Source of the DNA: a virus
DNA length: 36,921 nt
IMG/VR virus record: IMGVR_UViG_3300045988_076101
Direction: 5' to 3' (one strand)
Positions 888 through 25,374 of the stretch are shown here, piece after piece (positions within the stretch are counted from its first letter, which is position 1; each line of letters starts with the position of its first letter). Under the pieces are notes generated by a model. The model saw only the letters and a program-made list of their open reading frames with translations. It searched no databases and had not been told where the DNA came from. Made by a program: the position numbers and the translations under genes.

Positions 888-904
888 GTGCCCTATTCGG
901 GCAC
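888..904. repeat. Palindrome family copy 1 (GTGCCCTATTCGGGCAC, degenerate centre)
   Basis: Starts 3 nt after the TAA of the 628..885 gene. Shares the GTGCCC/GGGCAC arms with six other copies. Confidence 0.8.
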
Positions 905-924
905 AAATCGAAAGGAGTCAAAAC

Positions 925-1191
925 ATGGAAATAGTAGGCATAGCGAGCGTGGCGGCGATCACCGTCATCGCATATCTTATCGGCGAGGTAGTCAAGGCAA
1001 CCGGCCTTGATAACAAGTGGATCCCCGTCATCTGCGGGGTCTGCGGCGGCGCGCTGGGAGTCGTGGGCATGATGATTATGCCGGAGTTTCCGGCGACGGA
1101 CTACATAACCGCCGTCGCCGTCGGCATCGTGTCCGGTCTCGCAGCTACAGGAGCTAATCAGATTGTTAAGCAGCTGGGCAAGTCCGAATAA
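925..1191 (+). CDS. Holin (about 88 aa, three predicted TM helices)
   Basis: SD aaaggag upstream of ATG 925. Three hydrophobic helices (IVGIASVAAITVIAYLIGEVV, WIPVICGVCGGALGVVGMMIM, ITAVAVGIVSGLAATGA) and a charged C-terminus. Adjacent to the endolysin. Confidence 0.75.
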   Translation: MEIVGIASVAAITVIAYLIGEVVKATGLDNKWIPVICGVCGGALGVVGMMIMPEFPATDYITAVAVGIVSGLAATGANQIVKQLGKSE

Positions 1192-1201
1192 CTATTAACA
1201 G

Positions 1202-1226
1202 GGCCTGACGCAAGCCGCGTCAGGCC
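1202..1226 (+). terminator. GC-rich hairpin after the holin (10-bp stem ggcctgacgc/gcgtcaggcc, 5-nt loop), no U tract
   Basis: Perfect inverted repeat read directly. No T run follows, so terminator function is uncertain. Confidence 0.3.
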
Positions 1227-1240
1227 GCACAGGAGGAGCG

Positions 1241-3782: not shown

Positions 3783-3794
3783 GAAAACGAAAAA

Positions 3795-3824
3795 CCCTGT
3801 AGTTTCAACGACTACAGGGCTTTT
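3795..3824 (+). terminator. Rho-independent terminator closing the 2249-3685 operon
   Basis: ccctgtagt-ttcaacg-actacaggg followed by cttttcc. An A run upstream makes it potentially bidirectional. Confidence 0.7.
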
Positions 3825-3827
3825 CCT

Positions 3828-3932: not shown

Positions 3933-5126
3933 TTAAGTATCTTGAAAAGTATCTTGAGAGCTGAAGGCAGCAAGCACAGATTTTGCGGTATCTTCCGGGC
4001 GATTTTGCATCAGATGTGCGTATATATTCAGCGTGATCGCCGCCGTAGCGTGACCGGCGAGATACTGCGCCGTCTTGACATCTGCGCCGGACAGGATCAG
4101 CTCGGAAATGTATGTATGACGCAGCAGGTGCCGCGTTACATGGAAGTCGAAGGCAACCTTGACATTCCTATACGGAACATCATCCCCGACCTTCAGATCT
4201 TTTGTGATCGTCTTTCCATTGTTCTTATTATCCTTGTAGGTCACGGTGTGAACTTCGCGCACGGCGACGGCCTCCCATTCGTGCCGAAAGGACATGCTTG
4301 TATGAGGCGATCCGTCCCGGCGGCAGCAGACATAGCCGCTGTCGCGCCTGACGCTGCGCAGATGCTCCGTCAGAACGGGCGGTATCGGGACATCACGCCG
4401 CGCTGATTTGCTCTTAAGAGTATCCGTCAGAACAGGCTGATTGTGCTCCCATCGTAGAGCACGGCGGACACGGATGTGAGGAGCCTTGCCGTCGAGGTCG
4501 ACGCAGTCCCATTGCAGCCCCAGCGCCTCCTCCCTACGGAGTCCGGCATACATACAGAGCATGACGAAAGTCAGTATACGCTCCCCTTGCAGCTCTTTAA
4601 TGAGCGCGGTCTGCTGTTCTTTCGTCAGCGCGACCTTTTCGGGTGGCTTGCTGCCGCCGGCTTTAAGCCCCCGACACGGAGAGCGGCTGATCAGCTCGTT
4701 TTCCTCGGCTGCTGCAAACATCATCTTGAGCGTCGTGACGATCTTCTGCTGGCTCGCTTTCGACAGGTTCGCCGCGGCCAGCATTACGGCGCGAATGTTA
4801 TCCGGCTTCACCTCATCGAGACGCTGCTGCCCGATGACCGGGCAGATATGATTATTTATCGCGTTTCTGTGGCTCTGCCGCCCGCTGGAGGACAGCCCGG
4901 CGGTGTTCAGCTCGTACCACTTCGCAGCGTACTCAAATACATACGGCGACTGCGGGTTTTCCATCTCGGCAAACTCCGCCTCTTTTTCGCGCAAGCGCTC
5001 ACGCAGCTCAGCTTTCGTCTTACCGTAAATCGCAAGCCACTTGCCAGTCTGCGGATTTCTTATTTGCTTTTTATAGAGTTGCTTTTCTTTAACCCACGTA
5101 AACTCCGGGCGATTGTTCTTCGGCAT
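3933..5126 (-). CDS. int: Tyrosine recombinase / phage integrase
   Basis: 397 aa. Catalytic-type motifs AGLRREEALGLQW, HLLRHTYISE and GHATAAITLNIYAHL. SD aggtga upstream. Adjacent to the tRNA-like core. Confidence 0.9.
   Translation of the reverse strand: MPKNNRPEFTWVKEKQLYKKQIRNPQTGKWLAIYGKTKAELRERLREKEAEFAEMENPQSPYVFEYAAKWYELNTAGLSSSGRQSHRNAINNHICPVIGQQRLDEVKPDNIRAVMLAAANLSKASQQKIVTTLKMMFAAAEENELISRSPCRGLKAGGSKPPEKVALTKEQQTALIKELQGERILTFVMLCMYAGLRREEALGLQWDCVDLDGKAPHIRVRRALRWEHNQPVLTDTLKSKSARRDVPIPPVLTEHLRSVRRDSGYVCCRRDGSPHTSMSFRHEWEAVAVREVHTVTYKDNKNNGKTITKDLKVGDDVPYRNVKVAFDFHVTRHLLRHTYISELILSGADVKTAQYLAGHATAAITLNIYAHLMQNRPEDTAKSVLAAFSSQDTFQDT
3936..3957 (+). repeat. attP arm on the integrase side: two AGTATCTTGA repeats (3936-3945, 3948-3957)
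   Basis: Identical decamers in the same orientation as the four at 3695-3744. They overlap the last integrase codons (..QDTFQDT*). Confidence 0.7.
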
Positions 5127-5145: not shown

Positions 5146-5168
5146 CCTGTGCCCTAATTGGGCACAGG
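5146..5168. repeat. Palindrome family copy 2 (cctGTGCCCtaattGGGCACagg; 9-bp arms)
   Basis: Intergenic, between the integrase start and the stop of the Ltp-like gene. Confidence 0.8.
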
Positions 5169-5178: not shown

Positions 5179-6051
5179 TTAATATCCTGCTTTTGCGACG
5201 CCGTACTCGGCTTGTTCTTGAGAGAACCCCTCATATTTGAGCTGGTCAATCAGCCCTGACTTCGAGAACGAGGAGTGTTTCAGATACGATTCCGCGCACT
5301 TTGCTGCCTGTTCGTACCAGTCAGCGCCGCAGTTGTCGGCAGCAAACAGAGCTTCGGCATGAGTATACCCCTCATATTCGAGCTGTCCGATCAGGCCGGT
5401 GTACGAGAAAGACGAAGACCGCAGGTATGACAGCGCGGACTTGAGCGCGTTTTCCTCCCCAACGGTCTCGGCTGCTCTTAGCTTAGCCGAGGATGTCAAG
5501 TCGCCGGACGATATTTCATCGAAATAAGTCAGAACATCGTAAGAGACTGCCCCGTCGTAGATCTCAATCAGCGTATGCAGTCCCGTGTTCCCGTTGCTGT
5601 TGCGGAACGCCACGAAATCATTGTCATTGACAACAAGAATGTTAATGACAGGGTCGGTGCAGCCGTCGGCGACGAACTTATCAGTCAGCTCTTTACTCTT
5701 AGCGCATAAGGAGTCCTTAAGCGCCGTCCAATCATCATCTTGGTTGTTGTGCTCGGCGGAGAGCTGAATCGCTTGTTGTGTTATCGTTGTGTCCGCAAGG
5801 TACACCGTGAATGAAACCCCGCGGCTATTAGAATCGGCCTGAACGACAACAGCATCAAAGTCCCCGTTAAATGCCGAAGCTATAGCAAGTTTATAATTTC
5901 TCAGATCGTCTTCCGGTGTCGGCTCGGGTGTTGCGAGCTCAGCGGTTGACATCACGGGCTGCACACTGGAGGCCGGCGTCTTTGACATGGTGCCCATCAG
6001 AACGCCAAGAACAGCAATCAGAATGAGCAGATACCTCCACTTCAACTTCAT
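5179..6051 (-). CDS. Membrane-anchored protein with two C-terminal Ltp-type (host cell surface-exposed lipoprotein) repeats; superinfection-exclusion candidate
   Basis: N-terminal signal/anchor LLILIAVLGVLMG with no lipobox Cys. The C-terminus NALKSALSYLRSSSFSYTGLIGQLEYEGYTHAEALFAADNCGADWYEQAAKCAESYLKHSSFSKSGLIDQLKYEGFSQEQAEYGV fits the Ltp repeat pattern twice. Confidence 0.75.
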   Translation of the reverse strand: MKLKWRYLLILIAVLGVLMGTMSKTPASSVQPVMSTAELATPEPTPEDDLRNYKLAIASAFNGDFDAVVVQADSNSRGVSFTVYLADTTITQQAIQLSAEHNNQDDDWTALKDSLCAKSKELTDKFVADGCTDPVINILVVNDNDFVAFRNSNGNTGLHTLIEIYDGAVSYDVLTYFDEISSGDLTSSAKLRAAETVGEENALKSALSYLRSSSFSYTGLIGQLEYEGYTHAEALFAADNCGADWYEQAAKCAESYLKHSSFSKSGLIDQLKYEGFSQEQAEYGVAKAGY

Positions 6052-6075
6052 CCTCGTCGCCTCCTGATAAAATCG

Positions 6076-6098
6076 CCGGTGCCCGAATCGGGCACCGG
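6076..6098. repeat. Palindrome family copy 3 (ccgGTGCCCGAATCGGGCACcgg; 23-nt perfect palindrome)
   Basis: Intergenic, between the 6106..6651 and 5179..6051 minus-strand genes. Confidence 0.85.
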
Positions 6099-6105
6099 CG
6101 TGAAT

Positions 6106-6651
6106 TTATTTCCCCCGCCGCTCTTTGCGGCTTATTACAAAGAAATACACCGTCGCGGTGACGCCGGCCGTCAGCGCAACGATCACGACCGCTCCGACTA
6201 CGGACGGGGCGCCTCGCCACAGGCCGAAGTCGGGGTCTATGATATCAAGTCTCAAATACGGGACAAGCGCGATGATCGCCATCGCTGCGACGAAGGTCAG
6301 GCAGTAAATCAACCTGTCCTTTGCCCTCAGCGCCCGCCGGTGCTGCTGAAATGATCGTTCCAGCAGCTCATTTTCTCTCTTAACCGCCGCATTATCGTGC
6401 TCGAGCACCTCTATGCGGTGCTCGTTCTCCGGCGTCTTATCCGGGATTTCAATGCCGAAATACTCGTCCAGCGACACATTGCAGACCCGGCAGATCGGGC
6501 CGACCGTGTACACCGACGGGTCCTTTGACGCTCTCGCGAAGAATCCGTTAACCGTCGCTTCCGGTACTCCGGACAGCTCCGCGATGCGCCTGCTTGAGTT
6601 GTTCCCCTTATTTGCCCGACACAGATCTTTTAACAGCGGCTTTTCCGCCAT
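6106..6651 (-). CDS. Membrane-tethered XRE-type HTH protein (HTH + coiled coil + two C-terminal TM helices)
   Basis: N-terminal NNSSRRIAELSGVPEATVNGFF...CNVSLDEYFG is an XRE-like HTH. The C-terminal LIYCLTFVAAMAIIALVPYL and VVGAVVIVALTAGVTATVYFFVI are hydrophobic helices. Confidence 0.65.
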   Translation of the reverse strand: MAEKPLLKDLCRANKGNNSSRRIAELSGVPEATVNGFFARASKDPSVYTVGPICRVCNVSLDEYFGIEIPDKTPENEHRIEVLEHDNAAVKRENELLERSFQQHRRALRAKDRLIYCLTFVAAMAIIALVPYLRLDIIDPDFGLWRGAPSVVGAVVIVALTAGVTATVYFFVISRKERRGK

Positions 6652-6745
6652 TTCCTCGCCCCCAAACCCGTTATATCCTGATTAAGGCATCAGATACCCG
6701 AGCTTCGCGGTCATTTGACCGTGTTTGCGCATAGACATAACCGAT

Positions 6746-6762
6746 GATATTATGATAATATC
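6746..6762. promoter_or_regulatory. 17-bp perfect A/T-rich palindrome GATATTATGATAATATC in the 350-bp intergenic region; candidate operator overlapping a candidate plus-strand promoter (TAGACA-16 nt-GATAAT)
   Basis: Read directly. Flanked at a distance by the 10-bp inverted repeat cagatacccg (6691-6700) / cgggtatctg (6789-6798). Confidence 0.35.
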
Positions 6763-6916
6763 TAAGCGCAGCAGAAAAACCATAACACCGGGTATCTGCT
6801 AAAGCTTCGGTCGAGGCGGCAACCAAGGCCGGAGCAATTCTACAATGAAAGGGGGGCGCAAAGCCGGCAGCCCTGCGGTGTTCCTGTGCGCCGCAAATTT
6901 ATTTTAGGAGGCAACC

Positions 6917-7069
6917 ATGGAGGACACCAGACGAAGAGACCAGATCAACCGAATTATCAGCAAGTATCAGCTCCTGCCGCCGGAAGACCGGGAGAGGGTG
7001 CTCACTCTCCTTGCGTTTTTAATAGCAGATCAACATAGTCCTCCATGCGCTGCAAGTTCTCATCGTTGA
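6917..7069 (+). CDS. Possible 50-aa ORF convergent with, and overlapping by 68 nt, the 3' end of the repressor gene
   Basis: Strong SD aggagg 6 nt upstream of ATG 6917. The peptide MEDTRRRDQINRIISKYQLLPPEDRERVLTLLAFL... is below the ORF-track cutoff. Coding status uncertain. Confidence 0.25.
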   Translation: MEDTRRRDQINRIISKYQLLPPEDRERVLTLLAFLIADQHSPPCAASSHR

Positions 7070-7304: not shown

Positions 7305-7389
7305 AGTTTATCACCTGATATAACAATACGCGATATTCCCGGCGTTTTCAAGCTTTATAACAAATCGCTTATTTTTTTAATATTACCTC

Positions 7390-7418
7390 TTGACATATAG
7401 CGAAACGCTGTATATAAT
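7390..7418 (+). promoter_or_regulatory. Consensus early promoter (TTGACA-17 nt-TATAAT)
   Basis: TTGACA at 7390-7395 and TATAAT at 7413-7418, read directly. Divergent from the repressor gene. Confidence 0.75.
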
Positions 7419-8156: not shown

Positions 8157-8174
8157 TGGAATACATAAACACAA

Positions 8175-14227: not shown

Positions 14228-14419
14228 ACGAAGATCGGAGACAAGATTCGGTTTATCCCCTCAGCATGGACACAGTTCAGCGACGTAAGTTCCCTCAGCT
14301 CCTACGGCGTCAAGGGTGACGTCGAGGGCGAGATCGTCGAGATCAACTGGGCGCACCGGTGGTACAGAGCACGGTACCAGGCGGGCGGCGCGACACTTTA
14401 CGAGTCATTCAAATTTTAA
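14228..14419 (+). CDS. Probable small protein (..KIGDKIRFIPSAW...YESFKF) lacking any canonical start codon; ACG at 14228 sits where ATG is expected
   Basis: The frame is open over 14222-14416 and has GC3-rich, coding-like codons. Strong SD aggaggtg at 14213-14220. It fills the 234-nt gap between dnaB and parA. No ATG, GTG, TTG or CTG occurs in frame. Confidence 0.4.
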   Translation, partial: TKIGDKIRFIPSAWTQFSDVSSLSSYGVKGDVEGEIVEINWAHRWYRARYQAGGATLYESFKF

Positions 14420-14448
14420 GCAAAATCAGAGTCTGGAGGACCACAACG

Positions 14449-15180
14449 ATGAGAACAACCGCGATAATCAACCTCAAGGGCGGCGTCGCAAAGACGACGA
14501 CAGCCCTGAACATGGCCGCGATACTGGCCAAGGACTACAAGCAGCGCGTCCTGTTAGTGGACGCGGACAGCCAATGCAACTGCACCGAGTTTTTCCAGCG
14601 CGACGCGGTGCACCCCGGCACCCTCGCCGATATGCTGCGCGGCCTCGCGCCGTGCATCGAGCACAGCCGTTTTGACGGCGTCGACCTCCTTCCGGGAGAC
14701 GACAGCCTGATGGACCTCGACCTGACGAAGATCGAGACCGGCAGCGCCTCCGCCGTGTGCCTGCGTGAGCTGACCGCGGAGCTGGGCGACAGGTACGACC
14801 GGATGATCATCGACTGCCCGCCGGCGTTCAATGCGGCTTCTGCCGCGGCGCTGGTGGCGGCGGACGAGGTCATCATCCCGATCAAACTCGATGCGTTCAG
14901 CCTGCGCGGGATGGCGAACATCATGCAGCAGGTCAGCAACATGCGCAAGATCAACGACAGCCTCACCGTTGCCGGCATACTGCCGACGATGTGGTACAAG
15001 TCAGACAACATCATTGAGGCCGAGAAGATGCTGCGCGAGTTCGGGCTCCCGGTGCTGCCGCATGTTCGGCGCACGAACAAGGTCGACGACATGACCTTTG
15101 CACAGGAGCCGCTTGTTATCAGCTCGCCGAAGAGTGCGGCGGGCGTCGATTACCGCCGCGTCGTCGCGGCGCTGATGTGA
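14449..15180 (+). CDS. parA: ParA/Soj-type partition ATPase
   Basis: SD tggagga upstream of ATG 14449. Deviant Walker A IINLKGGVAKTTTALN, then VLLVDADSQCN. Confidence 0.85.
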   Translation: MRTTAIINLKGGVAKTTTALNMAAILAKDYKQRVLLVDADSQCNCTEFFQRDAVHPGTLADMLRGLAPCIEHSRFDGVDLLPGDDSLMDLDLTKIETGSASAVCLRELTAELGDRYDRMIIDCPPAFNAASAAALVAADEVIIPIKLDAFSLRGMANIMQQVSNMRKINDSLTVAGILPTMWYKSDNIIEAEKMLREFGLPVLPHVRRTNKVDDMTFAQEPLVISSPKSAAGVDYRRVVAALM

Positions 15181-15192: not shown

Positions 15193-16659
15193 ATGGGATT
15201 CGATTTAGCATCGGTGCTCAAGAATGTGCCCGATTCGGGCACAAATGACGGCCGTGAGCGCATCGAGTACATAGGGCTCGACAAGCTGCACGACGACCCG
15301 AATAACTTCTACTCCCTCGACGGCATCGAGGAGCTTGCCGAAAACATCGAGTTTGCGGGGCTCCAGCAGCCCGTCCGCGTCCGCCGCGATGCGGAGCACA
15401 GCGGCGAGTACATCATCGTCAGCGGCCACCGCCGCACGGCGGCGATGCGCAAGATTGTCGAGGACGGCAACAAGGCCTTTGAGACGGTGCCCTGCATCGT
15501 CGAGGCCGAGGGCGGCAGCGAGGCGCTGCGCGAGCTGCGCCTGATCTATGCCAACTCCGACACCCGCCGGATGTCCTCCGCTGATATCTCGAAGCAGGCC
15601 GAGCGCGTCGAGGCGCTGCTCTACCAGCTCAAGGAGGAGGGCGTTGAGTTCCCCGGCAGGATGCGCGACCACGTCGCCGAGGCCTGCAAGGTGAGCAAGT
15701 CGAAACTGTCCCGCCTGAAGGTGATCCGCGACAAGCTCGCGCCGGACATTTACGCCGGGTACTATGAAAAGGGCAAGCTGCCAGAGGACACGGCCTATAC
15801 GCTCGCTAAGCTTCCGGTCGGCGTCCAGCGTGACATTGTTGACCGCGCGACGCGGGATGGGCGGCAAAACATCCAGTATCTTTACGCGGCCAAAGTCGAA
15901 GATCAGGGCAAGGACATCGCGCGTTTCAGCAAAATGGCCTGCCGCTGCGAGCAGGGCGGAATCTGTATCAATGTTCCAAACCTGATGGATAAACTCTATG
16001 ACACTCGCGGATGGCGAGGAGATACTCACTGCGGCTCCGGCTGCTGCTACGACTGCGATGAGCTTGCGACCTGCTCAAAATGCTGCTCACGCATGGCGGC
16101 AGTCAAGGCGCAGAGAAAAGCCGAGATAAAAGAGGCCAAAGCCGCGGAAACTGCGGCACAGGCCGAACGCGACATGCCAAAGGTCGACGCGCTGAGGCTC
16201 CTCTGGAACCGGATGGGCGAGGCCTGCAAACGGGCAGGCGTTGATTATACTGAGGTCTGCTCCGAGGCCGACATTTACTCCCCGTTGCCGCCCAAGGACG
16301 CGACCGCGCTGCTTAACGGCGCTGGCAAGCTTGAGGTCAGCTGCCGCCCACCGTTCGGCTACGTCGTGAGCCTCCGTGATATCAAAGTTCTCGTCAAGCT
16401 GGCCGATCTGCTCGGCTGCTCGCTGGATTATCTCTTCGGCCGCGATGTGCCCGAATCGGGCACCGGCACGGCGGAGCCGAAGTGGCAGACCGGGGAGCCG
16501 CCGGAGGATGGCGAGTACGTTGTCTGGGCTGAAAGTCCGGACGAGGAAGCAGGATATACAGATATATCCGTTTATGAAAATGGCAGCTGGTGCGGCTACG
16601 GTTCCGCTGGGAATGCATATAGGGTCGTCGGCTGGTGGCCGATACCGCCGGAAGTGTAA
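15193..16659 (+). CDS. parB: ParB-like multi-domain protein (ParB/Srx N-terminal domain, HTH, Cys-rich cluster, XRE-like helix fragment, DUF551-like C-terminus)
   Basis: IIVSGHRRTAAM (GxRR box). CRCEQGGICINV...HCGSGCCYDCDELATCSKCC. LADLLGCSLDYLFGRD. The C-terminal YVVWAES...VVGWWPIPPEV. Confidence 0.75.
   Translation: MGFDLASVLKNVPDSGTNDGRERIEYIGLDKLHDDPNNFYSLDGIEELAENIEFAGLQQPVRVRRDAEHSGEYIIVSGHRRTAAMRKIVEDGNKAFETVPCIVEAEGGSEALRELRLIYANSDTRRMSSADISKQAERVEALLYQLKEEGVEFPGRMRDHVAEACKVSKSKLSRLKVIRDKLAPDIYAGYYEKGKLPEDTAYTLAKLPVGVQRDIVDRATRDGRQNIQYLYAAKVEDQGKDIARFSKMACRCEQGGICINVPNLMDKLYDTRGWRGDTHCGSGCCYDCDELATCSKCCSRMAAVKAQRKAEIKEAKAAETAAQAERDMPKVDALRLLWNRMGEACKRAGVDYTEVCSEADIYSPLPPKDATALLNGAGKLEVSCRPPFGYVVSLRDIKVLVKLADLLGCSLDYLFGRDVPESGTGTAEPKWQTGEPPEDGEYVVWAESPDEEAGYTDISVYENGSWCGYGSAGNAYRVVGWWPIPPEV
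15225..15243. repeat. Palindrome family copy 4 (tGTGCCCGATTCGGGCACa), inside parB codons (..NVPDSGTN..)
   Basis: Read directly. Confidence 0.85.
16447..16463. repeat. Palindrome family copy 5 (GTGCCCGAATCGGGCAC), inside parB codons (..DVPESGTG..)
   Basis: Read directly. Same reading phase relative to the palindrome as copy 4. Confidence 0.85.
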
Positions 16660-18509: not shown

Positions 18510-18569
18510 AAATCTTAATTAAACATTGCGGTCTATGGCCATGGGGCAAAGGACGTCAGGAGTATGTAC

Positions 18570-19292: not shown

Positions 19293-19295
19293 ATT

Positions 19296-19312
19296 GTGCC
19301 CGATTCGGGCAC
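19296..19312. repeat. Palindrome family copy 6 (GTGCCCGATTCGGGCAC)
   Basis: Starts 4 nt after the TAG of the Rep-like gene. Confidence 0.85.
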
Positions 19313-19385: not shown

Positions 19386-19586
19386 TTGCAATCTCAAAGC
19401 TTTTCTGATAAACTAACAGTGAAAGACGGGTTCCTCCAGTGCCCGACCTGCCGCGGCAACAAAAAGCTGCTTAAGATCGAGCCGGACACGACGGCGACTA
19501 ATCTGGTCGTCTTCTGCCGTTTCTGTAAAACCGAACATCGGATCGACATCAGTCGGGGCCAGTGCTTTGAGAGCCGGGGCCAGTGA
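19386..19586 (+). CDS. Cys-rich KTR-family-like zinc-ribbon protein (non-ATG start: TTG 19386 or GTG 19419)
   Basis: LQCPTCRGNKKLLKIEPDTTATNLVVFCRFCKTEHRIDI fits CPxC..K..KI..DT...N....C..CK.E..I. No in-frame ATG. Confidence 0.5.
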   Translation: MQSQSFSDKLTVKDGFLQCPTCRGNKKLLKIEPDTTATNLVVFCRFCKTEHRIDISRGQCFESRGQ

Positions 19587-19627
19587 TAGACACATGAGTG
19601 TGTTTGTTGCTGGCCCCGGCTCTTTTT
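19571..19627 (+). terminator. Strong Rho-independent terminator
   Basis: gagccggggccag (19571-19583) pairs with ctggccccggctc (19610-19622), followed by tttttcgttt. Confidence 0.8.
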
Positions 19628-20164: not shown

Positions 20165-20542
20165 ATGGGACGAAATGCAAAGCCAAAGACCAAAGCTGAC
20201 CGGATAAAAGCCGAGAAAAAACGGCTTGAATCCATCTACCAGGACATAGACCCCGTTCGCCAGAAGCTCGCCGCTCCGCTCATCGAGCGCGCCGCTTTCA
20301 TGCGCATCGAGTGCGAGGATCTCGAAGCCGACATCAAGGAGAACGGCTGGACGGAAATGTTTACCCAGTCGGCCAACGTCGAGCCTTATGCCCGTGCCCG
20401 TCCGCAGGGGCAGAGTTATCAGAGTTTGAACGGGAACTACCAGAAGATCATCCGGCAGCTCGACTCCATGCTCCCCGCCGTTGCCGGCAACAGCGAGGAC
20501 GACGGCTTCGGCAGTTTTGTCACGGGGCGTGATGACCCGTGA
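20165..20542 (+). CDS. terS: Terminase small subunit (P27-family-like)
   Basis: SD aaaggaggg upstream of ATG 20165. MGRNAKPKTK N-terminus. Position upstream of, and overlapping, terL. Confidence 0.7.
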   Translation: MGRNAKPKTKADRIKAEKKRLESIYQDIDPVRQKLAAPLIERAAFMRIECEDLEADIKENGWTEMFTQSANVEPYARARPQGQSYQSLNGNYQKIIRQLDSMLPAVAGNSEDDGFGSFVTGRDDP

Positions 20543-22284
20543 CAAAGCGCAGGTCGTATCCCCTCACTTTCGCCCCGATACGCGAGTACTGGGCGAAAAT
20601 CGAGAGCGGGCAGGAAGTCGTCTCGCAGAAGATCTACCGGACCTACCGGCACATAGTCCGCCGCATGGACGGAGAATGCTCGGAGTATTTCTACGACCCG
20701 CGGCGCGCTAACCACGTGATCGAGTTCGTCGAGAACTACTGCCGGCACTCCAAGGGCAAGCTCGGCGGTCAGCTCATTCAGCTTGAGCTTTGGGAAAAAG
20801 CGATGCTCGCGACGGTGTTCGGCTTCGTCGACATCGAGGGCAACCGCCAGTACCGCGAGGCGATCCTGATCGTCGGCAAGAAGAACGGCAAGAGCCTGCT
20901 CGCCTCGGCGATAGGCCTGTACATGCAGCTTGCCGATTCTGAGCCCGGCCCGGAGGTCTATGCAGTCGCTACCAAGCGAGACCAGGCTAAAATCATCTGG
21001 TCCGAGGCAAAGCGCATGGTGCAGAAGTCCCCGACGCTGCTCAAGCGTGTGCGGCCGCTCGTCGGCGAGATCGCCAGCGACTACAACGACGGCGTATTCA
21101 AACCGCTGTCCTCCGACAGCGACACGCTGGACGGCCTCAACGTTCATTGCGCGCTGCTCGACGAGATTCACCAGTGGAAGAACGGGCGGCAGCTGTACGA
21201 CATCATCGCCGACGGTATGTCCGCCCGCGAGCAGCCGCTGCTGTTCATCACCTCGACCGCCGGCAAGATTCGTGAGGATCTGTACGACGAGAAGTACGAG
21301 GAGATAGAGCGGGTCATTAACGGCTATGACGATCCTGACGGCTATCACGACGACCGCCTCATCGCGTTCGTCTACGAGCTCGACGCCCGTGCGGAGTGGA
21401 CAGACCCCGCCTGCTGGAAAAAGGCCAATCCCGGCCTCGGCACCACCAAGAGCTACAGAACGCTTGCAGAGAAGGTCGAGAAGGCCAAGGCAAACCCCGC
21501 GCTTGTCAAGAATCTGGTCTGTAAGGAGTTTAACATCCGCGAGACTAGCTCCGAGGCGTGGCTCACCTTTGAGGAGCTCGACTGCCGCGACACGTACAAG
21601 CTCAACCCCTCGGAGCGGATCTTCGTCTGGGTGCATGACGGCGTTGAAGAGGTGCTGCCGTATCCGACCTACGGTATCGGCGGCGTTGACCTGTCGAGCA
21701 CGACCGACCTCACGGCCGCCCGTGTCATCTTCCAGGTTCCCGGGTGTGAGAAGATCTTCTCGATCTCTATGTACTGGCTGGCCGAGGATCTTCTCACCAA
21801 GCGAGTCAACGAGGACAAGATCCCGTATGACAAGTGGCTCGACCGCGGGCTGGTTCAGCTCAGCCCCGGCAACCACGTTCACGCGAAGTACGTCAAGGAG
21901 TGGTTTGTCTACGTTCAGGAGGAACTGGACATCTACATCCCCTACGTCGGATACGACAGCTGGAGCGCGACCTACTTCGTTGAGGACATGGCCGACTACT
22001 TCGGCAAGATGTCAATGATCCCGGTCGTGCAGGGTAAGAAGACGCTCAGTGAGCCGATGAAGCGCCTCGGCAATGACCTCGGCAGCAAGCGCATCATCTA
22101 CAACAACAATCCGATCGACAAGTGGTGCCTGGCGAATACGGCTTACGACGAGGACGTTAACGGCAACATTCAGCCGCATAAGACCAGCAAGCCGACCCGC
22201 CGCATTGACGGCACGGCTGCACTGCTGGACGCGTACACCGTGTTCCTGGACAAGCAGGACGAATACCGCGACCTAATCGCATAG
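20539..22284 (+). CDS. terL: Terminase large subunit (Terminase_1-like)
   Basis: 581 aa. Walker A-like ILIVGKKNGKSLL. GTG start overlaps the terS stop. Confidence 0.9.
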   Translation: MTKRRSYPLTFAPIREYWAKIESGQEVVSQKIYRTYRHIVRRMDGECSEYFYDPRRANHVIEFVENYCRHSKGKLGGQLIQLELWEKAMLATVFGFVDIEGNRQYREAILIVGKKNGKSLLASAIGLYMQLADSEPGPEVYAVATKRDQAKIIWSEAKRMVQKSPTLLKRVRPLVGEIASDYNDGVFKPLSSDSDTLDGLNVHCALLDEIHQWKNGRQLYDIIADGMSAREQPLLFITSTAGKIREDLYDEKYEEIERVINGYDDPDGYHDDRLIAFVYELDARAEWTDPACWKKANPGLGTTKSYRTLAEKVEKAKANPALVKNLVCKEFNIRETSSEAWLTFEELDCRDTYKLNPSERIFVWVHDGVEEVLPYPTYGIGGVDLSSTTDLTAARVIFQVPGCEKIFSISMYWLAEDLLTKRVNEDKIPYDKWLDRGLVQLSPGNHVHAKYVKEWFVYVQEELDIYIPYVGYDSWSATYFVEDMADYFGKMSMIPVVQGKKTLSEPMKRLGNDLGSKRIIYNNNPIDKWCLANTAYDEDVNGNIQPHKTSKPTRRIDGTAALLDAYTVFLDKQDEYRDLIA

Positions 22285-22295
22285 GGAGTGATGCT

Positions 22296-23477
22296 TTGAG
22301 CATATTCGACAGATTTATAAATAAGACAATTTCCCGCGTCGACCTTGTGACTGAGCGCGGCAACGGCTTCTTTGCCTGGAACGGCAAAGCTTACCAAAGC
22401 GACATTGTCCTCTCAGCCATTCGGCAGGACGTGAAAGCCGTCGGCAAGCTGACGCCGAAGCACGTCCGGGAAAGCTTCACCGCCGACGGCAAGCGCAAGA
22501 TCGACATAAATCCGGAGCCTTACATCCGGTTCCTGCTTGAGGAGCCGAACCCGTGGATGACGGGCTCGGTGTTCCGCGAGAAGCTGATGACTCAGCTCAA
22601 GCTCAACCAGAACGCTTTCGCGCTGATCCTGCGCGATGACAACGGGCTGCCGGTCAATATCTATCCGATATCGGCCTCCGGATGCGAGGCCATTTACGAC
22701 CGCAGCGGTGAGCTGTTCCTCAAGTTCTTTTTCAACAACGGCAAAATTTTTACCTTCAGGTACACGGACGTGATTCACCTGCGGGATAACTTCCACAAGG
22801 ATGACATCTTCGGGACGCCGATATTTCCGGCGCTCGAACCGCTGATGCAGATCGTGTCCGTCACCGACCAGGGCATTGTCAAGGCCGTCAAAAACAGCTC
22901 GGTCATCCGCTGGCTGCTGAAGCTCAACAGCTCGATGCGGAAGAAGGACGTTGAAGAGCAGGCGAACAGCTTCGCCAAGGCGTTCCTCGACGTCGAGAAC
23001 GGCCGAGGAGTGGCCGCCGTCGACGCGAAGGCGGACGCCGTACAGGTCAATCCGACCGACTACGTGCCGAACGCCGCGCAGATGGACCGAACCACGAAGC
23101 GCATTTATTCGCTTTTCGGGACTAATCAGAAGGTCGTTGACACCTCACGCAGCGAGGCCGAGTGGGGCGCACACTTCGACAGCGAGGTCGAGTGGGTGCA
23201 GAACCAGCTCAGCGAGGAGTTTACCCGGAAGCTGTTTTCCCGCAAGGCGCGAGCCTTCGGGAACAAGATCGTATTCGAGGCAAGCGCATGGGACTGCGCC
23301 AGCATGCAAACCAAGCTCAATCTCGTTTCACTCGTCGACCGCGGCGCTCTGACGCCGAACGAGTGGCGCGCTGCGTTCAACCTCGCGCCAGTCGACGGCG
23401 GCGATGAACCGATACGGCGTCTTGACACCGCGCCGACAAAGCAAATAGGAGAGGAGGCATCATCCGGTGAGAATTGA
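22296..23477 (+). CDS. Portal protein (HK97 family)
   Basis: 393 aa with a TTG start after gggagtg. Position after terL and a general HK97-portal sequence pattern. Confidence 0.85.
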   Translation: MSIFDRFINKTISRVDLVTERGNGFFAWNGKAYQSDIVLSAIRQDVKAVGKLTPKHVRESFTADGKRKIDINPEPYIRFLLEEPNPWMTGSVFREKLMTQLKLNQNAFALILRDDNGLPVNIYPISASGCEAIYDRSGELFLKFFFNNGKIFTFRYTDVIHLRDNFHKDDIFGTPIFPALEPLMQIVSVTDQGIVKAVKNSSVIRWLLKLNSSMRKKDVEEQANSFAKAFLDVENGRGVAAVDAKADAVQVNPTDYVPNAAQMDRTTKRIYSLFGTNQKVVDTSRSEAEWGAHFDSEVEWVQNQLSEEFTRKLFSRKARAFGNKIVFEASAWDCASMQTKLNLVSLVDRGALTPNEWRAAFNLAPVDGGDEPIRRLDTAPTKQIGEEASSGEN

Positions 23478-24144
23478 TGTAAAGGGCACCATCGTTAGCA
23501 GCGATGAGGCCTGGATCTACGATTGGTTCGGAATCGAGAACACGAGCCCGAAGCCAATCAGGGACGCTCTGGCGAGGGCCAGAGGCGAGCCCGTTGACGT
23601 CTACATAAACTCCGGCGGCGGCGATATCTTCGCCGGGTCGGAAATATACTCTGAGCTCAGAGCCTACAAAGGGCCGGTCGCATTGCATGTGACCGGCCTT
23701 GCTGCATCTGCGGCCTCGGTGATCGCCTGTGCAGGCCCGTCGGACATCTCGCCGACGGGGATGGTCATGGTACATAACGTGTCCGGCAGCGCTGCCGGGG
23801 ACTACCACACCATGGACAAGCACAGCGACGTCCTCCGCAAGGCGAACGAGACGATTGCCGCCGCCTATGTGGAGAAAACCGGCATGACGCTTGATGCGGC
23901 ACTGAAGCTCATGGACGAGGAGACGTGGCTCTCCGCAGCTGACGCTGTGGAAAAAGGTCTGATCGACAAGGTCAGCGAGCCCGCCGTCCGCATCACAGCC
24001 GCCTGCTGCACGGTGCTGCCGGCGGAAGTGATCAACAAAATGCGCAACTCGATCAAACCGCCCGAGGGCGAGCCCGCGGACGATCTGATAAAAGCCAAGG
24101 CCAAACTCAAATTTTATGAACTGAAAGGAAGATCTCTCACATGA
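23467..24144 (+). CDS. Prohead protease, ClpP/S14 type
   Basis: YINSGGGDIFAGSEIY...GLAASAASVIACAG...MVMVHN. Confidence 0.85.
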   Translation: MRIDVKGTIVSSDEAWIYDWFGIENTSPKPIRDALARARGEPVDVYINSGGGDIFAGSEIYSELRAYKGPVALHVTGLAASAASVIACAGPSDISPTGMVMVHNVSGSAAGDYHTMDKHSDVLRKANETIAAAYVEKTGMTLDAALKLMDEETWLSAADAVEKGLIDKVSEPAVRITAACCTVLPAEVINKMRNSIKPPEGEPADDLIKAKAKLKFYELKGRSLT

Positions 24145-25355
24145 AGAAAGAAATTTATCTCCAGAAGCGCGGCGAGCTTATGAATCAGGCCCAGCAGCTT
24201 CTGGACGCCGGTGATACCGAGAAGTTCGAGGATGTCACCAAGCAGATCGAAAAACTCGACAACGAGTACGAAGAGTCCAGCAAGCGCCAGGCGAACCTTG
24301 ACGCGCTCAAGGACCGTGTCGCCGGCCCTGACTTCGCCGCCGCTGCCGCTAACCCGCAGTTCGGCAACGTGGTCGGCCGCTACGAGCAGGGCGCGCCCGA
24401 CGATATGTACGACTCCGCCGAGTATAAGGCGGCGTTCCAGGCATACGTTTGCCGCGGCGTTCCCATCCCGGCGAAGTTCTCCAACGCCGACCAGAACACC
24501 AAAACCAGCGATGCGTCCGTAGTCATTCCGACCACGACCGTCCAGAAGATCTATGAGGCGATGGAGCGCGTCGGCAACATCCTGCTGCTCGTCACCCGCA
24601 CGAACTTTGCCGGCGGCATGTCCGTGCCCACCTCCAGCGTCAAGCCGACTGCGACGTGGGTCGCCGAAGGCGCAGGCTCCGACACCCAGAAGAAGACCGT
24701 CTCTTATATCTCGTTCTCTTACCACAAGCTGCGCTGCGCAGTCCGTGTCAGCTACGAGATGGATAACATGGCTTACGGTTTCTTCGAGGCACAGCTGGCG
24801 CAGAACGTTGCCGAGGCGATCGTCAAGGCCGAGGAGACCGCCATCTTTAAGGGCACCGGCAGCGGCCAGCCCAAGGGCTTCCTGACCGAGACCGCCACGG
24901 GCAACATCGACATCGCCAACACCAAGCACATCTCTTACGCCGACCTTTGCAAGGCCGAAGGCCTTGAGGAAGACGACGAGGCCATCTGGGTTATGACCAA
25001 GGCGACCTTTATGAACGAGATTCAGGGCATGGTCGATACCGACGGTCAGCCCGTCGCCCGCGTCAACTACGGCCTCAACGGCAAGCCCGAGTACTACATC
25101 TTCGGCCGCCGCGTCGAGATTGTCAACAAGGCTTACATGGATGACGCGAACCCTAACCCGACCGCCGACACCATCTGCGCCGCGCTCTACAACTTCCGCA
25201 ACTACATTTTCAACAGCGGCGTCGCACTGCGCTTCCGCCGCTACACCGACGACAAGACCGACGATGAAGTTACCGTCGCGATTGAGGTCTGCGACGGCAG
25301 GAGCGTCCAGAATCAGAGCCTTATCACGCTGACCAACAAGAAGGCGGGCGGCTAA
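24141..25355 (+). CDS. Major capsid protein (HK97 fold, with N-terminal delta/scaffold coiled coil)
   Basis: 404 aa. Coiled-coil N-terminus. Position after the protease. Start overlaps the protease stop (ATGA). Confidence 0.9.
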   Translation: MKKEIYLQKRGELMNQAQQLLDAGDTEKFEDVTKQIEKLDNEYEESSKRQANLDALKDRVAGPDFAAAAANPQFGNVVGRYEQGAPDDMYDSAEYKAAFQAYVCRGVPIPAKFSNADQNTKTSDASVVIPTTTVQKIYEAMERVGNILLLVTRTNFAGGMSVPTSSVKPTATWVAEGAGSDTQKKTVSYISFSYHKLRCAVRVSYEMDNMAYGFFEAQLAQNVAEAIVKAEETAIFKGTGSGQPKGFLTETATGNIDIANTKHISYADLCKAEGLEEDDEAIWVMTKATFMNEIQGMVDTDGQPVARVNYGLNGKPEYYIFGRRVEIVNKAYMDDANPNPTADTICAALYNFRNYIFNSGVALRFRRYTDDKTDDEVTVAIEVCDGRSVQNQSLITLTNKKAGG

Positions 25356-25374
25356 TGTGCCCGAATCGGGCACA
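25356..25374. repeat. Palindrome family copy 7 (tGTGCCCGAATCGGGCACa)
   Basis: Starts immediately after the TAA of the capsid gene. Confidence 0.85.

What the first reader, a model, noticed from the sequence alone, without database searches (positions are those of the whole stretch)
888..25374. Seven-copy 17-bp palindrome family GTGCCCGAWTCGGGCAC dispersed over the genome (parS-like or REP-like sites?)
Copies found by eye:
- 888-904 (centre degenerate, TATTC)
- 5149-5165 (TAATT; arms extend to 9 bp, 5146-5168)
- 6079-6095 (extends to a 23-nt perfect palindrome, 6076-6098)
- 15227-15243
- 16447-16463
- 19296-19312
- 25358-25374

What the copies have in common:
- A specific 17-mer is not expected to recur even once by chance in 37 kb.
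- Five copies are intergenic and sit within 0-4 nt of a stop codon, or between minus-strand lysogeny genes.
- Two copies lie inside the parB-like gene.
- None has a U tract, so they are not ordinary terminators.

Hypotheses (inference):
- (a) They are centromere-like parS sites for the phage ParB-like protein. Chromosomal parS sites are 16-bp palindromes, and the first one described in Bacillus subtilis lies inside spo0J itself.
- (b) They are recognition hairpins for the HUH Rep-like protein, by analogy with REP/RAYT and IS200/IS605, since one copy directly follows that gene.
- (c) They are binding sites for a phage regulator or insulator.

The invariant centre contains GANTC, a known methyltransferase motif class, although no methyltransferase gene is seen here.
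Basis: partly seen in the sequence, partly recalled or inferred. Interest (0 to 1): 0.8.

Follow-up and report, generated by a model that had tools for sequence, protein, structure and literature searches.

The report
Dispersed ParB-binding palindromes in gut phage
Seven copies of a 17-bp palindrome scattered over this temperate gut-phage genome are most likely the binding sites (parS-like centromere/operator sites) of the phage's own ParB protein, and one copy is written into the parB gene itself, a layout that recurs across a very large family of Clostridia phage and plasmid ParB genes.

Summary

The window is a complete 36.8-kb temperate siphophage-like genome with integrase, Ltp, XRE regulators, DnaB, ParA, ParB, an RCR-type Rep and an HK97-type head.

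The exact 17-mer recurs in at least 120 gut viral contigs, with unrelated flanks. Inside genes it is almost always in one frame, giving VP(D/E)SGT, in at least 12 unrelated proteins. That points to selection on the DNA, not the peptide.

Related phages carry compensatory variants: GTGTCC-N5-GGACAC, and GTGCCC-N4-GGGCAC. In nearly every lineage examined, one copy sits in the codons of the parB N-terminal linker and further copies of the same variant lie elsewhere in that genome.

Among 150 ParB representatives under 50% identity, the linker peptide shows P-G / S-D coupling that mirrors the palindrome (p=1e-9). It also tracks the HTH recognition helix.

C. perfringens plasmid pCP13 shares only ParA, ParB and a generic HTH with this phage, yet has seven GTGTCC-N5-GGACAC copies.

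Best reading: these are cognate ParB sites, like parS or KorB operators (confidence about 0.65). Rep/REP-like, terminator, methylation and host-REP readings are disfavoured. Homology breakpoints between phages cluster at the sites. No binding experiment exists.

The parts
888..904 (.). Palindrome copy 1, GTGCCCTATTCGGGCAC (centre TATTC). It lies between the stop of an XhlA-like gene (568-885) and the holin gene (925-1191).
   Evidence: The same centre variant is kept at the syntenic place in relatives.
5149..5165 (.). Palindrome copy 2, GTGCCCTAATTGGGCAC. The arms extend to 9 bp (5146-5168). It lies between the integrase start (5126) and the stop of the Ltp-like gene (5179).
   Evidence: The variant is conserved in L243, L244, L252, L253 and L257.
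6079..6095 (.). Palindrome copy 3, GTGCCCGAATCGGGCAC, inside a 27-nt perfect hairpin (6074-6100). It lies between the Ltp-like gene start (6051) and the stop of the 181-aa HTH gene (6106). It is the only copy that also looks like a bidirectional terminator.
   Evidence: (-26.8 kcal/mol).
15226..15242 (.). Palindrome copy 4, in parB codons 12-17 (VPDSGT). These codons form the linker between the N-terminal FDLASVLK peptide and the ParB N-domain.
16447..16463 (.). Palindrome copy 5, in parB codons 419-424 (VPESGT). It is invariant in 19 relatives, and in L250/L251 the ParB C-terminus is replaced 7 nt after it.
19296..19312 (.). Palindrome copy 6, 3 nt after the stop of the Rep (REP_ORF2-G2P) gene, at the start of the AT-rich region that precedes the packaging/late genes.
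   Evidence: The syntenic copy in L265 lies 4 nt after the rep stop.
25357..25373 (.). Palindrome copy 7, 1 nt after the stop of the major capsid gene.
15193..16659 (+). parB-like gene (488 aa) with four regions. ParB N-domain with the GHRRTAA (GxxRxxA) box. HTH DNA-binding region (FPGRMRDHVAEACKVSKSKLSRLKVIR). Cys-rich middle region. C-terminal XRE-like remnant. It is the proposed reader of the palindromes.
14359..15180 (+). parA-like Walker-type ATPase gene immediately upstream of parB (the start may be 14449).
   Evidence: The ParA-ParB pair is conserved in L265-L268, in Cormatin and in pCP13.

Best explanation
The 17-bp palindromes are the cognate DNA-binding sites of the phage's ParB-family protein. 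They are functionally parS-like (centromere) and/or KorB-OB-like (dispersed operator) sites.

Proposed mechanism (inferred):
- A ParB dimer reads the two 6-bp half-sites GTGCCC / GGGCAC, whose centres are 11 bp apart, with its two HTH domains.
- Like other proteins of the ParB-CTPase fold, it would close into a clamp at the site and spread or slide from it.
- With the adjacent ParA it would position or partition the circular phage genome, or it would modulate transcription from several loading points.

The selected object is the DNA site. Copies can therefore sit in intergenic gaps, sometimes doubling as hairpin terminators. They can also sit inside genes, but only in the frame that yields a harmless hydrophilic linker peptide, VP(D/E)SGT.

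What is shown and what is inferred:
- Shown: the site family, DNA-level selection, lineage-specific compensatory variation, the near-constant copy in the parB 5' linker, co-occurrence with ParAB in a plasmid, and the ParB domain make-up.
- Inferred: physical binding by ParB, CTP-dependent clamping, and the biological role (partition or regulation).
For: 1. Non-random and widespread.
- The window has 7 copies against about 0.15 expected.
The flanks are unrelated, apart from a weak extension to CY...RG.

2. Selection on DNA, not peptide.
- 75 of about 80 intragenic copies are in frame 0, in at least 12 unrelated protein families, at linkers or termini.
- 427 of 429 six-frame VP[DE]SGT occurrences use the exact 17-mer.
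- Synonymous diversity is zero in both parB sites, against a gene mean of 0.118.

3. Lineage-specific compensatory variants.
- Cormatin and MT835558 use GTGTCC-N5-GGACAC.
- L265 and L268 use GTGCCC-N4-GGGCAC.
- L267 uses TGTCCA-N3-TGGACA.
- Each recurs 2-5 times per locus, with at most 0.007 expected.
- Homologous proteins change peptide with the variant: VPESGT becomes VSNSDT.

4. parB carries a copy.
- 14 of 16 ParB-bearing loci have a 6-bp-arm palindrome in the first 120 nt of parB, starting at codons 12-20. The other 2 have degenerate remnants.
- In 12 of the 14 the same arm/spacer pattern occurs again in the locus. For Cormatin (L262) the strict pattern found only the parB copy. Its other three copies show up with the GTGTCC-N5-GGACAC pattern.
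- Among 150 representatives under 50% identity, 110 have V[SP]xx[DG]T. The counts are P-G 29 and S-D 60, against P-D 11 and S-G 10 (odds ratio 15.8, p=1e-9). This coupling makes sense only as CCC/GGG versus TCC/GGA symmetry.

5. The protein is a true ParB.
- The Pfam ParB_N domain scores above its cutoff.
- The sequence aligns to Caulobacter and H. pylori ParB through the N-domain and the HTH.
- GHRRxxA is present in 149 of 150 relatives.
- ParA is adjacent.

6. The recognition helix tracks the site type. SKSKL occurs in 19 of 25 P-G proteins and 10 of 56 S-D proteins (p=8e-7).

7. Plasmid pCP13.
- It is 25.5% GC and has 7 exact GTGTCC-N5-GGACAC copies, with 7e-5 expected. One lies between parA and parB.
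- Of 61 window proteins, only ParA, ParB and a generic XRE HTH have homologues there.

8. The host uses a different site. The study of the Cormatin host F. plautii located chromosomal parS with the canonical consensus TGTTTCACGTGAAACA, so the phage site would be orthogonal to it (PMC10197239).
Against: - No binding data exist. Every link to ParB is comparative.
- Phylogenetic non-independence inflates the Fisher tests.
- Mixed peptides (P-D, S-G) occur in about 19% of family members.
- Two loci have a parB-embedded variant that differs from another copy in the same locus. L269 has GTGTCC in parB and GTGCCC elsewhere, and L263 has one GTGCCC copy.
- ParB and Rep are nearly always syntenic in the phages, so only pCP13 separates them.
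- I found no motif-bearing phage that demonstrably lacks ParB. Contig coverage was too partial to make that a strong test.
- An integrating prophage has no obvious need for a centromere.
Confidence: 0.65

Rival explanations
1. The palindromes are a dispersed operator set for another phage-encoded HTH regulator, such as an XRE/CI-like repressor. This would resemble the multi-copy repressor sites of Streptomyces phage phiC31 (17-bp conserved inverted repeats), mycobacteriophage L5 stoperators or P1 C1 operators. The prophage would be silenced or insulated at many points.
For: - A 17-bp dyad with 6-bp half-sites one helical turn apart is classical for HTH dimers.
- The phage has at least three XRE-type regulators (7002-7304, 8791-9480, 9437-9925).
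- Related phages have similar regulators.
- pCP13 has an S24/XRE protein whose HTH is 36% identical to that of 7002-7304.
- Two copies bracket a lysogeny-expressed gene.
Against: - There is no copy in the divergent regulatory region 6651-7420, where the perfect sigma-70 promoter lies.
- The one gene that carries a copy in nearly every lineage is parB, not a regulator gene.
- The same 17-mer is shared by phages that would be expected to differ in immunity.
- The site type correlates with the ParB recognition helix.
Confidence: 0.12
2. The primary role is recombinational. The shared palindromes would be preferred crossover or junction points, through short homology or cruciform/hairpin-induced breaks or a dedicated recombinase. 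They would drive exchange of modules and domains among co-resident phages.
For: Homology breakpoints abut the motif far more often than they abut control shared 17-mers.
- Ungapped comparison: 15.7% against 1.67%.
- Indel-tolerant comparison: 20.6% against 6.7% for intergenic anchors, and 17.1% against 1.5% for intragenic anchors.
- Checked by eye in L007/L065, L014/L026 and L005/L068, and in the swapped ParB C-terminus of L010/L250.
- The same downstream gene (holin, integrase) follows the motif behind different upstream genes.
Against: - Pairs are not independent.
- Gene and domain boundaries are junction-prone anyway.
- The 3-5 bp spacer is too short for the 6-8 bp overlap of tyrosine-recombinase core sites (background knowledge). 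No dedicated recombinase co-varies.
- This reading does not explain the near-constant copy in the parB linker or the HTH covariation.
- It is compatible with being a side-effect of conserved ParB sites.
Confidence: 0.1
3. The palindromes act at the RNA level, as stable hairpins that terminate or attenuate transcription or protect 3' ends after highly expressed genes.
For: - All copies fold into 6-12-bp GC-rich hairpins of -13 to -27 kcal/mol.
- Three copies start 1-3 nt after stop codons.
- Site 6079 and most pCP13 copies have A/T-rich flanks like bidirectional terminators.
Against: - Five or six of the seven lack a U tract.
- The phage's clear terminators have unrelated sequences (19573-19620, 7089-7115, 3789-3825).
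- Structure alone would not keep an identical stem sequence at every site and across hundreds of phages.
- About half of all copies are inside ORFs.
- The central base shows no strand bias.
- There is no Rfam match.
Confidence: 0.07
4. The palindromes are recognition hairpins for the HUH Rep-like protein (REP/RAYT- or IS200/IS605-like), or a host-derived REP or uptake-type repeat.
For: - One copy directly follows rep in the window and in L265.
- Rep is present on most motif-bearing contigs.
Against: - Rep is of the REP_ORF2-G2P rolling-circle initiator type, not a Y1 transposase.
- In L266, L267, L268 and Cormatin no copy is adjacent to rep.
- pCP13 has 7 copies and no Rep homologue.
- Gut-Clostridia genome hits are prophage-like, with only 1-3 blocks per genome.
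- Non-Clostridia hits are a purF coding coincidence.
- Phages of similar hosts carry different variants that match their own parB.
Confidence: 0.03

Closest known systems
Chromosomal and plasmid ParABS systems (ParB-CTPase + 16-bp palindromic parS; the B. subtilis parS inside spo0J)
   Same: - The ParB N-domain has the GxxRxxA box, and an HTH follows it.
- A ParA gene is adjacent.
- The site is a short perfect palindrome present in several copies, one of them inside parB itself.
   Different: - The site sequence is unrelated to TGTTNCACGTGAAACA.
- It is 17 bp (16 in some lineages), with 6-bp arms and a variable centre.
- The intragenic copy lies in the codons of the N-terminal linker across a whole family.
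- Copies are spread round a 37-kb integrating phage and written in-frame into unrelated genes.
- The protein has an extra Cys-rich region and a C-terminal XRE-like segment.
KorB-OB system of IncP plasmid RK2 (PMC11790492)
   Same: - The protein is a ParB-family CTP clamp encoded next to a ParA-type ATPase.
- Its odd-length palindromic sites (TTTAGCSGCTAAA) are dispersed over the whole replicon.
- They serve regulation at a distance as well as partition.
   Different: - No KorA-like partner or promoter association has been shown here.
- The host is Firmicutes phages and plasmids.
- The sites here are tolerated inside coding sequence.
Prophage-plasmid N15 SopB with four separate natural IR centromere sites (PMC7205306)
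   Same: - It is a temperate phage.
- Its ParB-type protein uses several single palindromic sites placed apart in the genome, rather than one clustered centromere.
   Different: - N15 is a non-integrating linear plasmid prophage, whereas this phage has an integrase.
- The protein subfamily and the site are different.
Multi-copy repressor sites of temperate actinophages (phiC31 17-bp conserved inverted repeats; L5 stoperators), cited from background knowledge
   Same: Many copies of one short site are scattered through a temperate phage genome, mostly in short intergenic gaps.
   Different: - Those sites are read by the immunity repressor.
- L5 sites are asymmetric and orientation-biased.
- Here the site tracks parB, and no copy lies at the immunity switch.
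Uptake sequences (USS/DUS) and Rickettsia palindromic elements, as analogies for DNA motifs living inside genes (background knowledge)
   Same: - A DNA-level motif is tolerated in coding sequence only in particular frames or positions.
- Intergenic copies double as hairpins.
   Different: The driving force is different (uptake bias or mobile insertion), and so are the scale and the sequences.

Membership tests
ParB/ParABS (ParB-CTPase fold partition or regulatory system) | ParB/Srx N-terminal domain with the GxxRxxA (CTP-binding) box | tested here: met
   Pfam ParB_N scores 27.4 bits against a cutoff of 26.3. The box SGHRRTAAM aligns to GERRxRA of 4UMK and 6T1F. GHRRxxA is present in 149 of 150 family representatives.
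ParB/ParABS (ParB-CTPase fold partition or regulatory system) | Helix-turn-helix DNA-binding domain after the N-domain | tested here: met
   phmmer alignment of residues 29-217 to Caulobacter ParB residues 42-211 includes the HTH. The block FPGRMRDHVAEACKVSKSKLSRLKVIR is highly conserved.
ParB/ParABS (ParB-CTPase fold partition or regulatory system) | Adjacent ParA-type Walker ATPase | tested here: met
   Gene 14359-15180 matches AAA_31/CbiA/MipZ and PHROG 164, a ParA-like family. The pair is conserved in relatives and in pCP13.
ParB/ParABS (ParB-CTPase fold partition or regulatory system) | Cognate palindromic site(s) on the same replicon that co-vary with the protein | tested here: met
   Lineage-specific palindromes occur in parB and elsewhere in the same genome. 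The linker peptide shows P-G/S-D coupling. The recognition helix is associated with site type. pCP13 carries the same palindrome family.
ParB/ParABS (ParB-CTPase fold partition or regulatory system) | Specific binding of ParB to the site; CTP-dependent clamp loading; stabilisation of the replicon | not testable with these tools
   This needs EMSA, ChIP-seq, CTPase or cross-linking assays and plasmid-stability assays.
KorB-type global regulator | Sites positioned relative to promoters, and a clamp-locking partner (KorA/TrbA-like) | not tested
   Only a crude promoter scan was run. It gave no systematic promoter association, and no partner was identified.
REP/RAYT (or IS200/IS605) hairpin elements | Y1 HUH transposase (TnpA_REP), with many extragenic copies in the host chromosome | tested here: not met
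   Rep matches REP_ORF2-G2P, not Y1_Tnp. About half of the copies are intragenic. Genome hits are prophage-like or purF coincidences. pCP13 has copies but no Rep.
Intrinsic (rho-independent) terminators | GC-rich hairpin directly followed by a U tract | tested here: not met
   Only site 6079 passes the scan. The phage's other terminators have unrelated stems.
Restriction-modification / GANTC methylation motif | An invariant short target within all copies, and a methyltransferase gene | tested here: not met
   The centre varies (TATTC, TAATT, AGATC, AAATC, AACTT, 4-nt spacers). No MTase was found in the window. Some relatives have one, but without a GANTC centre.
Immunity-repressor multi-operator sets (phiC31 CIR, L5 stoperator type) | Bound by the prophage repressor, with copies at the immunity switch | tested here: inconclusive
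   There is no copy in 6651-7420. Binding cannot be tested. XRE regulators are present.

The most novel reading that the evidence does not exclude
The ParB sites double as the 'linker sequences' of modular phage evolution. The same 17-21-bp island is conserved in otherwise unrelated genomes and is tolerated in-frame as a VP(D/E)SGT (or VSxSDT) hinge. It would therefore act as a portable crossover point at which whole modules, and even protein domains such as the ParB C-terminus, are swapped among gut Oscillospiraceae phages. Each swap would leave a recognisable hexapeptide scar. A DNA-binding site would in this way shape both the mosaic architecture and the linker sequences of many unrelated proteins.
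Probability: 0.25. Interest if true: 0.75.

Novelty: new variant of a known kind. Interest (0 to 1): 0.62.

Why it matters
If ParB binds these sites, several things follow.

- **A large family gets a candidate site.** This ParB family has about 500 clusters at 50% identity with E<=1e-30. Its members sit on gut Clostridia prophages and on C. perfringens pCP13-type toxin plasmids. The site could then be read directly from the parB linker codons of each member.
- **Testable specificity.** The natural half-site variants (GTGCCC and GTGTCC, N5 and N4) pair with natural recognition-helix variants (SKSKL, SKTKL and SRSKL).
- **pCP13 family centromere.** The working assignment for the pCP13 plasmid family would change. 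A different 117-bp region was proposed earlier (PMC4459074).
- **DNA sites shaping proteins.** It would be a clear case of a protein-binding DNA site imposing a hexapeptide on many unrelated proteins.
- **Mosaic junctions.** The sites mark mosaic junctions in gut phages.
- **A practical marker.** The 17-mer is a cheap marker for this group of Oscillospiraceae prophages in metagenomes.

Tried and rejected
- **Literature search for the sequences.** The 17-mers and the pCP13 variants returned nothing relevant.
- **Megablast of the window against GenBank phages.** It found only a 74% TerL fragment.
- **Stop-to-stop open frames for coding context.** At 58% GC every site lay in some long open frame, so this was useless. 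I replaced it with a codon-usage gene finder trained on the window.
- **Genome-collection scan.**
  - Most hits were in high-GC non-Clostridia.
  - At first these looked like evidence of a widespread motif.
  - They turned out to be the conserved purF peptide IPVPDSGT combined with codon bias.
- **Fetching distant Rep relatives with an alignment.** The aim was a ParB+/-, Rep+/- contingency table.
- **Walking along contig 064203 with a 30-mer.** The data are stored in chunks, so this returned only a related contig, L269. That contig did, however, carry DnaB-ParA-ParB.
- **Rfam.** No family matched.
- **Peptide-level selection for VPDSGT** (a short linear motif, e.g. sortase-like). Rejected because synonymous codings are essentially absent and intergenic copies keep the same DNA.
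- **GANTC methylation.** Rejected because the centre varies.
- **Structure prediction of ParB.** Not run; the sequence alignment to solved ParB structures was judged sufficient.

Full report
**1. The observation**

Exhaustive searches on both strands find exactly seven matches to GTGCCC-N5-GGGCAC. They lie at 888, 5149, 6079, 15226, 16447, 19296 and 25357. Allowing up to 3 mismatches to the 17-mer adds none. Dinucleotide-preserving shuffles give 0.14-0.19 matches, and none of 100 shuffles reaches 7. Five copies have the centre GAWTC. Site 888 has TATTC and site 5149 has TAATT.

**2. What the window is**

- Bases 1-119 are identical to 36803-36921, so this is a complete circular assembly of 36,802 bp. 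GC is 58%.
- Pfam and PHROG scans show a temperate siphophage-like genome.
- Lysis genes: an XhlA-like gene (568-885) and a holin (925-1191).
- Lysogeny genes, all on the minus strand: integrase (3933-5126), an Ltp-type superinfection-exclusion lipoprotein (5179-6051) and a weak HTH gene (6106-6651).
- XRE-type regulators: 7002-7304 (minus strand), 8791-9480 and 9437-9925. A perfect sigma-70 consensus lies at 7390-7418.
- Replication and partition genes: a DnaD/O-like initiator (12035-12868), DnaB (12859-14214), ParA (14359-15180), ParB (15193-16659) and a REP_ORF2-G2P rolling-circle-type Rep (18564-19292).
- Packaging and head genes: HNH, TerS, TerL (20539-22284), portal, protease and the HK97-type capsid gene (24141-25355), followed by tail genes.
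- Sites 888, 19296 and 25357 begin 2, 3 and 1 nt after stop codons.
- Sites 5149 and 6079 bracket the Ltp gene.
- Sites 15226 and 16447 are parB codons 12-17 and 419-424.

**3. Not terminators, not a known RNA**

- All copies can fold into GC-rich hairpins of -13 to -27 kcal/mol.
- Only 6079, a 12-bp stem with T-rich tails on both strands, passes a terminator scan.
- The phage's obvious terminators (19573-19620, 7089-7115, 3789-3825) have unrelated stems.
- Rfam gives no match.

**4. The exact 17-mer is widespread, and it is selected as DNA**

The 120 loci are mostly from human gut and hold 147 exact copies.
- The flanks are not conserved. The only signals are 'not A' at -1 and mostly C at -2, with their mirror images, which hints at a 21-bp dyad CYGTGCCCGAWTCGGGCACRG.
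- I used a codon-usage gene finder trained on the window. About half of the copies are intragenic.
- 75 of about 80 intragenic copies are in the frame that reads V-P-(D/E)-S-G-T.
- They sit in at least 12 unrelated protein families: ParB, TerL, a SPOR-domain amidase, a tail protein, small proteins and a 1776-aa protein.
- They always lie at termini or in low-complexity linkers.
- Of 429 six-frame occurrences of VP[DE]SGT in these loci, 427 are encoded by the exact 17-mer.
- In 19 parB relatives the six codons of both sites show zero synonymous diversity, against a gene mean of 0.118. The central base flips freely between A and T, which changes D to E.
- The selected object is therefore the DNA (or RNA) sequence, and the peptide is a passenger.

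**5. Not a host repeat**

- The genome-collection scan was also capped.
- Its many hits in Nocardia, Sphingomonas and similar taxa fall in purF. There the conserved PRPP-loop peptide ...IPVPDSGT... combined with high-GC codon bias recreates the 17-mer. This is an unrelated coincidence.
- Hits in Dysosmobacter, Oscillibacter, Ruminococcaceae and 'Clostridiales' genomes share proteins with the viral loci, so they are prophages. They give only 1-3 blocks per genome.

**6. Lineage-specific, compensatory variants that track parB**

- Close ParB relatives (80-91% identity, L241-L257) keep all syntenic copies, including the odd centres.
- More distant relatives carry different but internally consistent palindromes.

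| Lineage | Palindrome | Reference |
|---|---|---|
| Flavonifractor phage Cormatin (ParB 45% identical) and MT835558 | GTGTCC-N5-GGACAC, four copies each. This is a double change, C4>T with G14>A. | |
| L266 | GTGTCCGACTTGGACAC | |
| L267 | (G)TGTCCAAWTTGGACA(C) | |
| L265 and L268 | 16-bp form GTGCCC-N4-GGGCAC | |
| L258/L261 | GTGCCC-N5-GGGCAC with other centres | |

- In each of these lineages one copy lies in the parB 5' linker, starting at codons 12-20. The linker joins the N-terminal FDLASVLK peptide to the RExIEYI start of the ParB domain. In most lineages the same arms and spacing recur 1-5 more times in the same locus, with at most 0.007 expected.
- 14 of 16 ParB-bearing loci have such a palindrome, and the other 2 have degenerate remnants. 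In 12 of the 14 the strict pattern used found a further copy. Cormatin's other three copies appear with the GTGTCC-N5-GGACAC pattern.
- A homologous small protein reads MSKKRN-VPESGT-DRTPLWAQ in the GTGCCC phages and MGDKRA-VSNSDT-GATPLWAQ in MT835558. The peptide follows the genome's palindrome type.
- Exceptions exist. L269 has GTGTCC in parB but a GTGCCC copy near its integrase, and MT835558 has one GTGCCC copy. Given the mosaicism described in section 10, these may have been imported with a module.

**7. Family-wide test without DNA**

- A search of 1.84 billion representatives finds 503 ParB clusters at E<=1e-30.
- In the best 150, all under 50% identical to one another, 110 have V-[SP]-x-x-[DG]-T in the linker.
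- P pairs with G (29) and S pairs with D (60), against P-D (11) and S-G (10). Fisher odds ratio 15.8, p=1e-9.
- Residues 2 and 5 of a disordered hexapeptide have no structural reason to co-vary.
- As DNA, though, CCC/GGG and TCC/GGA are exactly the symmetric positions 4-6 and 12-14 of the palindrome.
- Relatedness inflates the p-value, but the direction and size of the effect are striking.

**8. The protein is a real ParB, and its recognition helix tracks the site**

- ParB_N passes Pfam's cutoff.
- phmmer aligns residues 8-217 to H. pylori and Caulobacter ParB structures, through the GxxRxxA box (SGHRRTAAM) and the HTH.
- GHRRxxA is present in 149 of 150 relatives, and ParA is adjacent.
- The HTH block FPGRMRDHVAEACKV-SKSKL-SRLKVIR is very conserved. 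At the start of the recognition helix, GTGCCC lineages have SKSKL, while GTGTCC lineages have SKTKL, SAPKL or SRSKL.
- Across the 150 representatives, SKSKL occurs in 19 of 25 P-G proteins and in 10 of 56 S-D proteins (p=8e-7).
- This is suggestive rather than decisive, because the two groups are partly clades.

**9. A plasmid separates ParB from Rep**

- The ParB family also occurs on C. perfringens pCP13-type plasmids, at 34% identity.
- pCP13 is 54.3 kb and 25.5% GC. It carries seven exact GTGTCC-N5-GGACAC copies (GTGTCCCC[G/C]GGGGACAC) at 1701, 3516, 18492, 37854, 45174, 45228 and 49934, with 7e-5 expected, plus two degenerate copies.
- The first copy lies between the parA stop and the parB start. 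The second follows the next gene.
- Of 61 predicted window proteins, only ParA, ParB and a generic XRE HTH have homologues on pCP13. Rep has none.
- The published 'putative parS' for this plasmid family is a different 117-bp region between parB and PCP03, assigned by inspection (PMC4459074).
- In this AT-rich plasmid the copies have A/T runs on both sides and would also make good bidirectional terminators. A dual use is plausible.

**10. Mosaic junctions**

- For pairs of loci that share the motif and are homologous on at least one side, homology ends at the motif in 15.7% of cases. For ordinary shared 17-mers the figure is 1.67%.
- I repeated the comparison with an indel-tolerant measure, split by context:

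| Anchor type | Motif | Control 17-mers |
|---|---|---|
| Intergenic | 20.6% | 6.7% |
| Intragenic | 17.1% | 1.5% |

- Inspection of six pairs confirmed four true junctions at or within 7 nt of the motif. One is a replaced ParB C-terminus. The other two pairs were 1-2-nt indels.
- The holin and integrase genes follow the motif behind different upstream genes.
- I read this as a probable by-product of identical sequence islands in diverged genomes, but it may be functionally important.

**11. Comparison with what is known**

- The closest analogues are ParABS with a parS inside parB (B. subtilis spo0J, from background knowledge), KorB with its dispersed OB palindromes on RK2 acting at long range as a CTP clamp (PMC11790492), and prophage-plasmid N15 with four separate natural IR centromere sites (PMC7205306).
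- The study of the Cormatin host F. plautii located chromosomal parS with the canonical consensus TGTTTCACGTGAAACA (PMC10197239). The phage site would therefore be orthogonal to it.
- I found no paper describing these palindromes. The searchable library is incomplete.

**12. Verdict**

The best-supported explanation is a ParB-cognate site family (confidence about 0.65).
- It is a new variant of a known kind of system. Its unusual features are a family-wide site encoded in the parB linker, in-frame copies in unrelated genes, 16- and 17-bp and C/T half-site variants, and enrichment at mosaic junctions.
- Binding, CTP dependence and biological role (partition of the excised or replicating genome, or KorB-like regulation) remain inferences.

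Noticed in passing
window 1-119 and 36803-36921: Exact 119-nt terminal direct repeat. The window is a circularly closed (or terminally redundant) complete genome of 36,802 bp, and the ORF at 36661-36921 continues in frame into 3-581.
   Followed up: partly
window 11257-11628: Long tandem array of 6/12/18-nt units (CGACGGCTACGGCTCCGG...) inside gene 11268-12038. It encodes a Gly/Asp/Tyr/Ser-rich low-complexity region.
   Followed up: no
window 10885-10960 and 12015-12090: 76-nt direct repeat (89% identity) bracketing genes 10990-11280 and 11268-12038, as if that two-gene block were a duplicated or inserted cassette.
   Followed up: no
window 8111-8160 and 8817-8866: 50-nt repeat (92%) covering the start codon and upstream leader of two minus-strand genes (7820-8134 and 8460-8840).
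   Followed up: no
window 15193-16659 (ParB residues ~250-300 and ~395-420): ParB has a Cys-rich middle segment (CRCEQGGIC...HCGSGCCYDCDELATCSKCC), which could be a metal-binding site. It also has a C-terminal XRE-like HTH remnant (LADLLGCSLDYLFGRD) just before the second palindrome. Neither is usual for canonical ParB.
   Followed up: no
L121-L240 (e.g. L238 4806-6272): The exact 17-mer occurs in purF (amidophosphoribosyltransferase) of many high-GC bacteria. The conserved ...IPVPDSGT... loop combined with codon bias recreates it. This is a coincidence that would mislead any naive motif census.
   Followed up: yes
L270/L271 (pCP13, NC_003042.1: 1701, 3516, 18492, 37854, 45174, 45228, 49934): Seven dispersed GC-rich palindromes GTGTCCCC[G/C]GGGGACAC lie in a 25.5%-GC plasmid. 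They have the same arms as the Cormatin-type phage sites. The published putative parS of this plasmid family is a different 117-bp region.
   Followed up: partly
L258 1978-2083; L261 6643-6748, and L261 1559, 4402, 6318: Five iterons CTGACAAAAATGTCAG at ~22-bp spacing, likely a replication origin. There is also a second dispersed palindrome CTTCCCCTCAAGGGGAAG (3 copies) in the 39%-identity ParB relatives.
   Followed up: no
window 7390-7418 and 19573-19620: There is a perfect sigma-70 consensus (TTGACA-17-TATAAT) at the start of the rightward early region. A very strong 20-bp-stem terminator lies ~280 bp downstream of palindrome 6.
   Followed up: no
window 34291-34866 and 34869-35666: Two adjacent genes share similar 5' ends (two blocks of about 62 nt, 76-84% identical), so they are tandem paralogues in the tail/host-recognition region.
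   Followed up: no
L269 6288 and 11964: A relative has a GTGTCC-type copy in parB but a GTGCCC-type copy near its integrase. This mixed site type within one genome is an exception to the lineage rule and may result from module exchange.
   Followed up: partly
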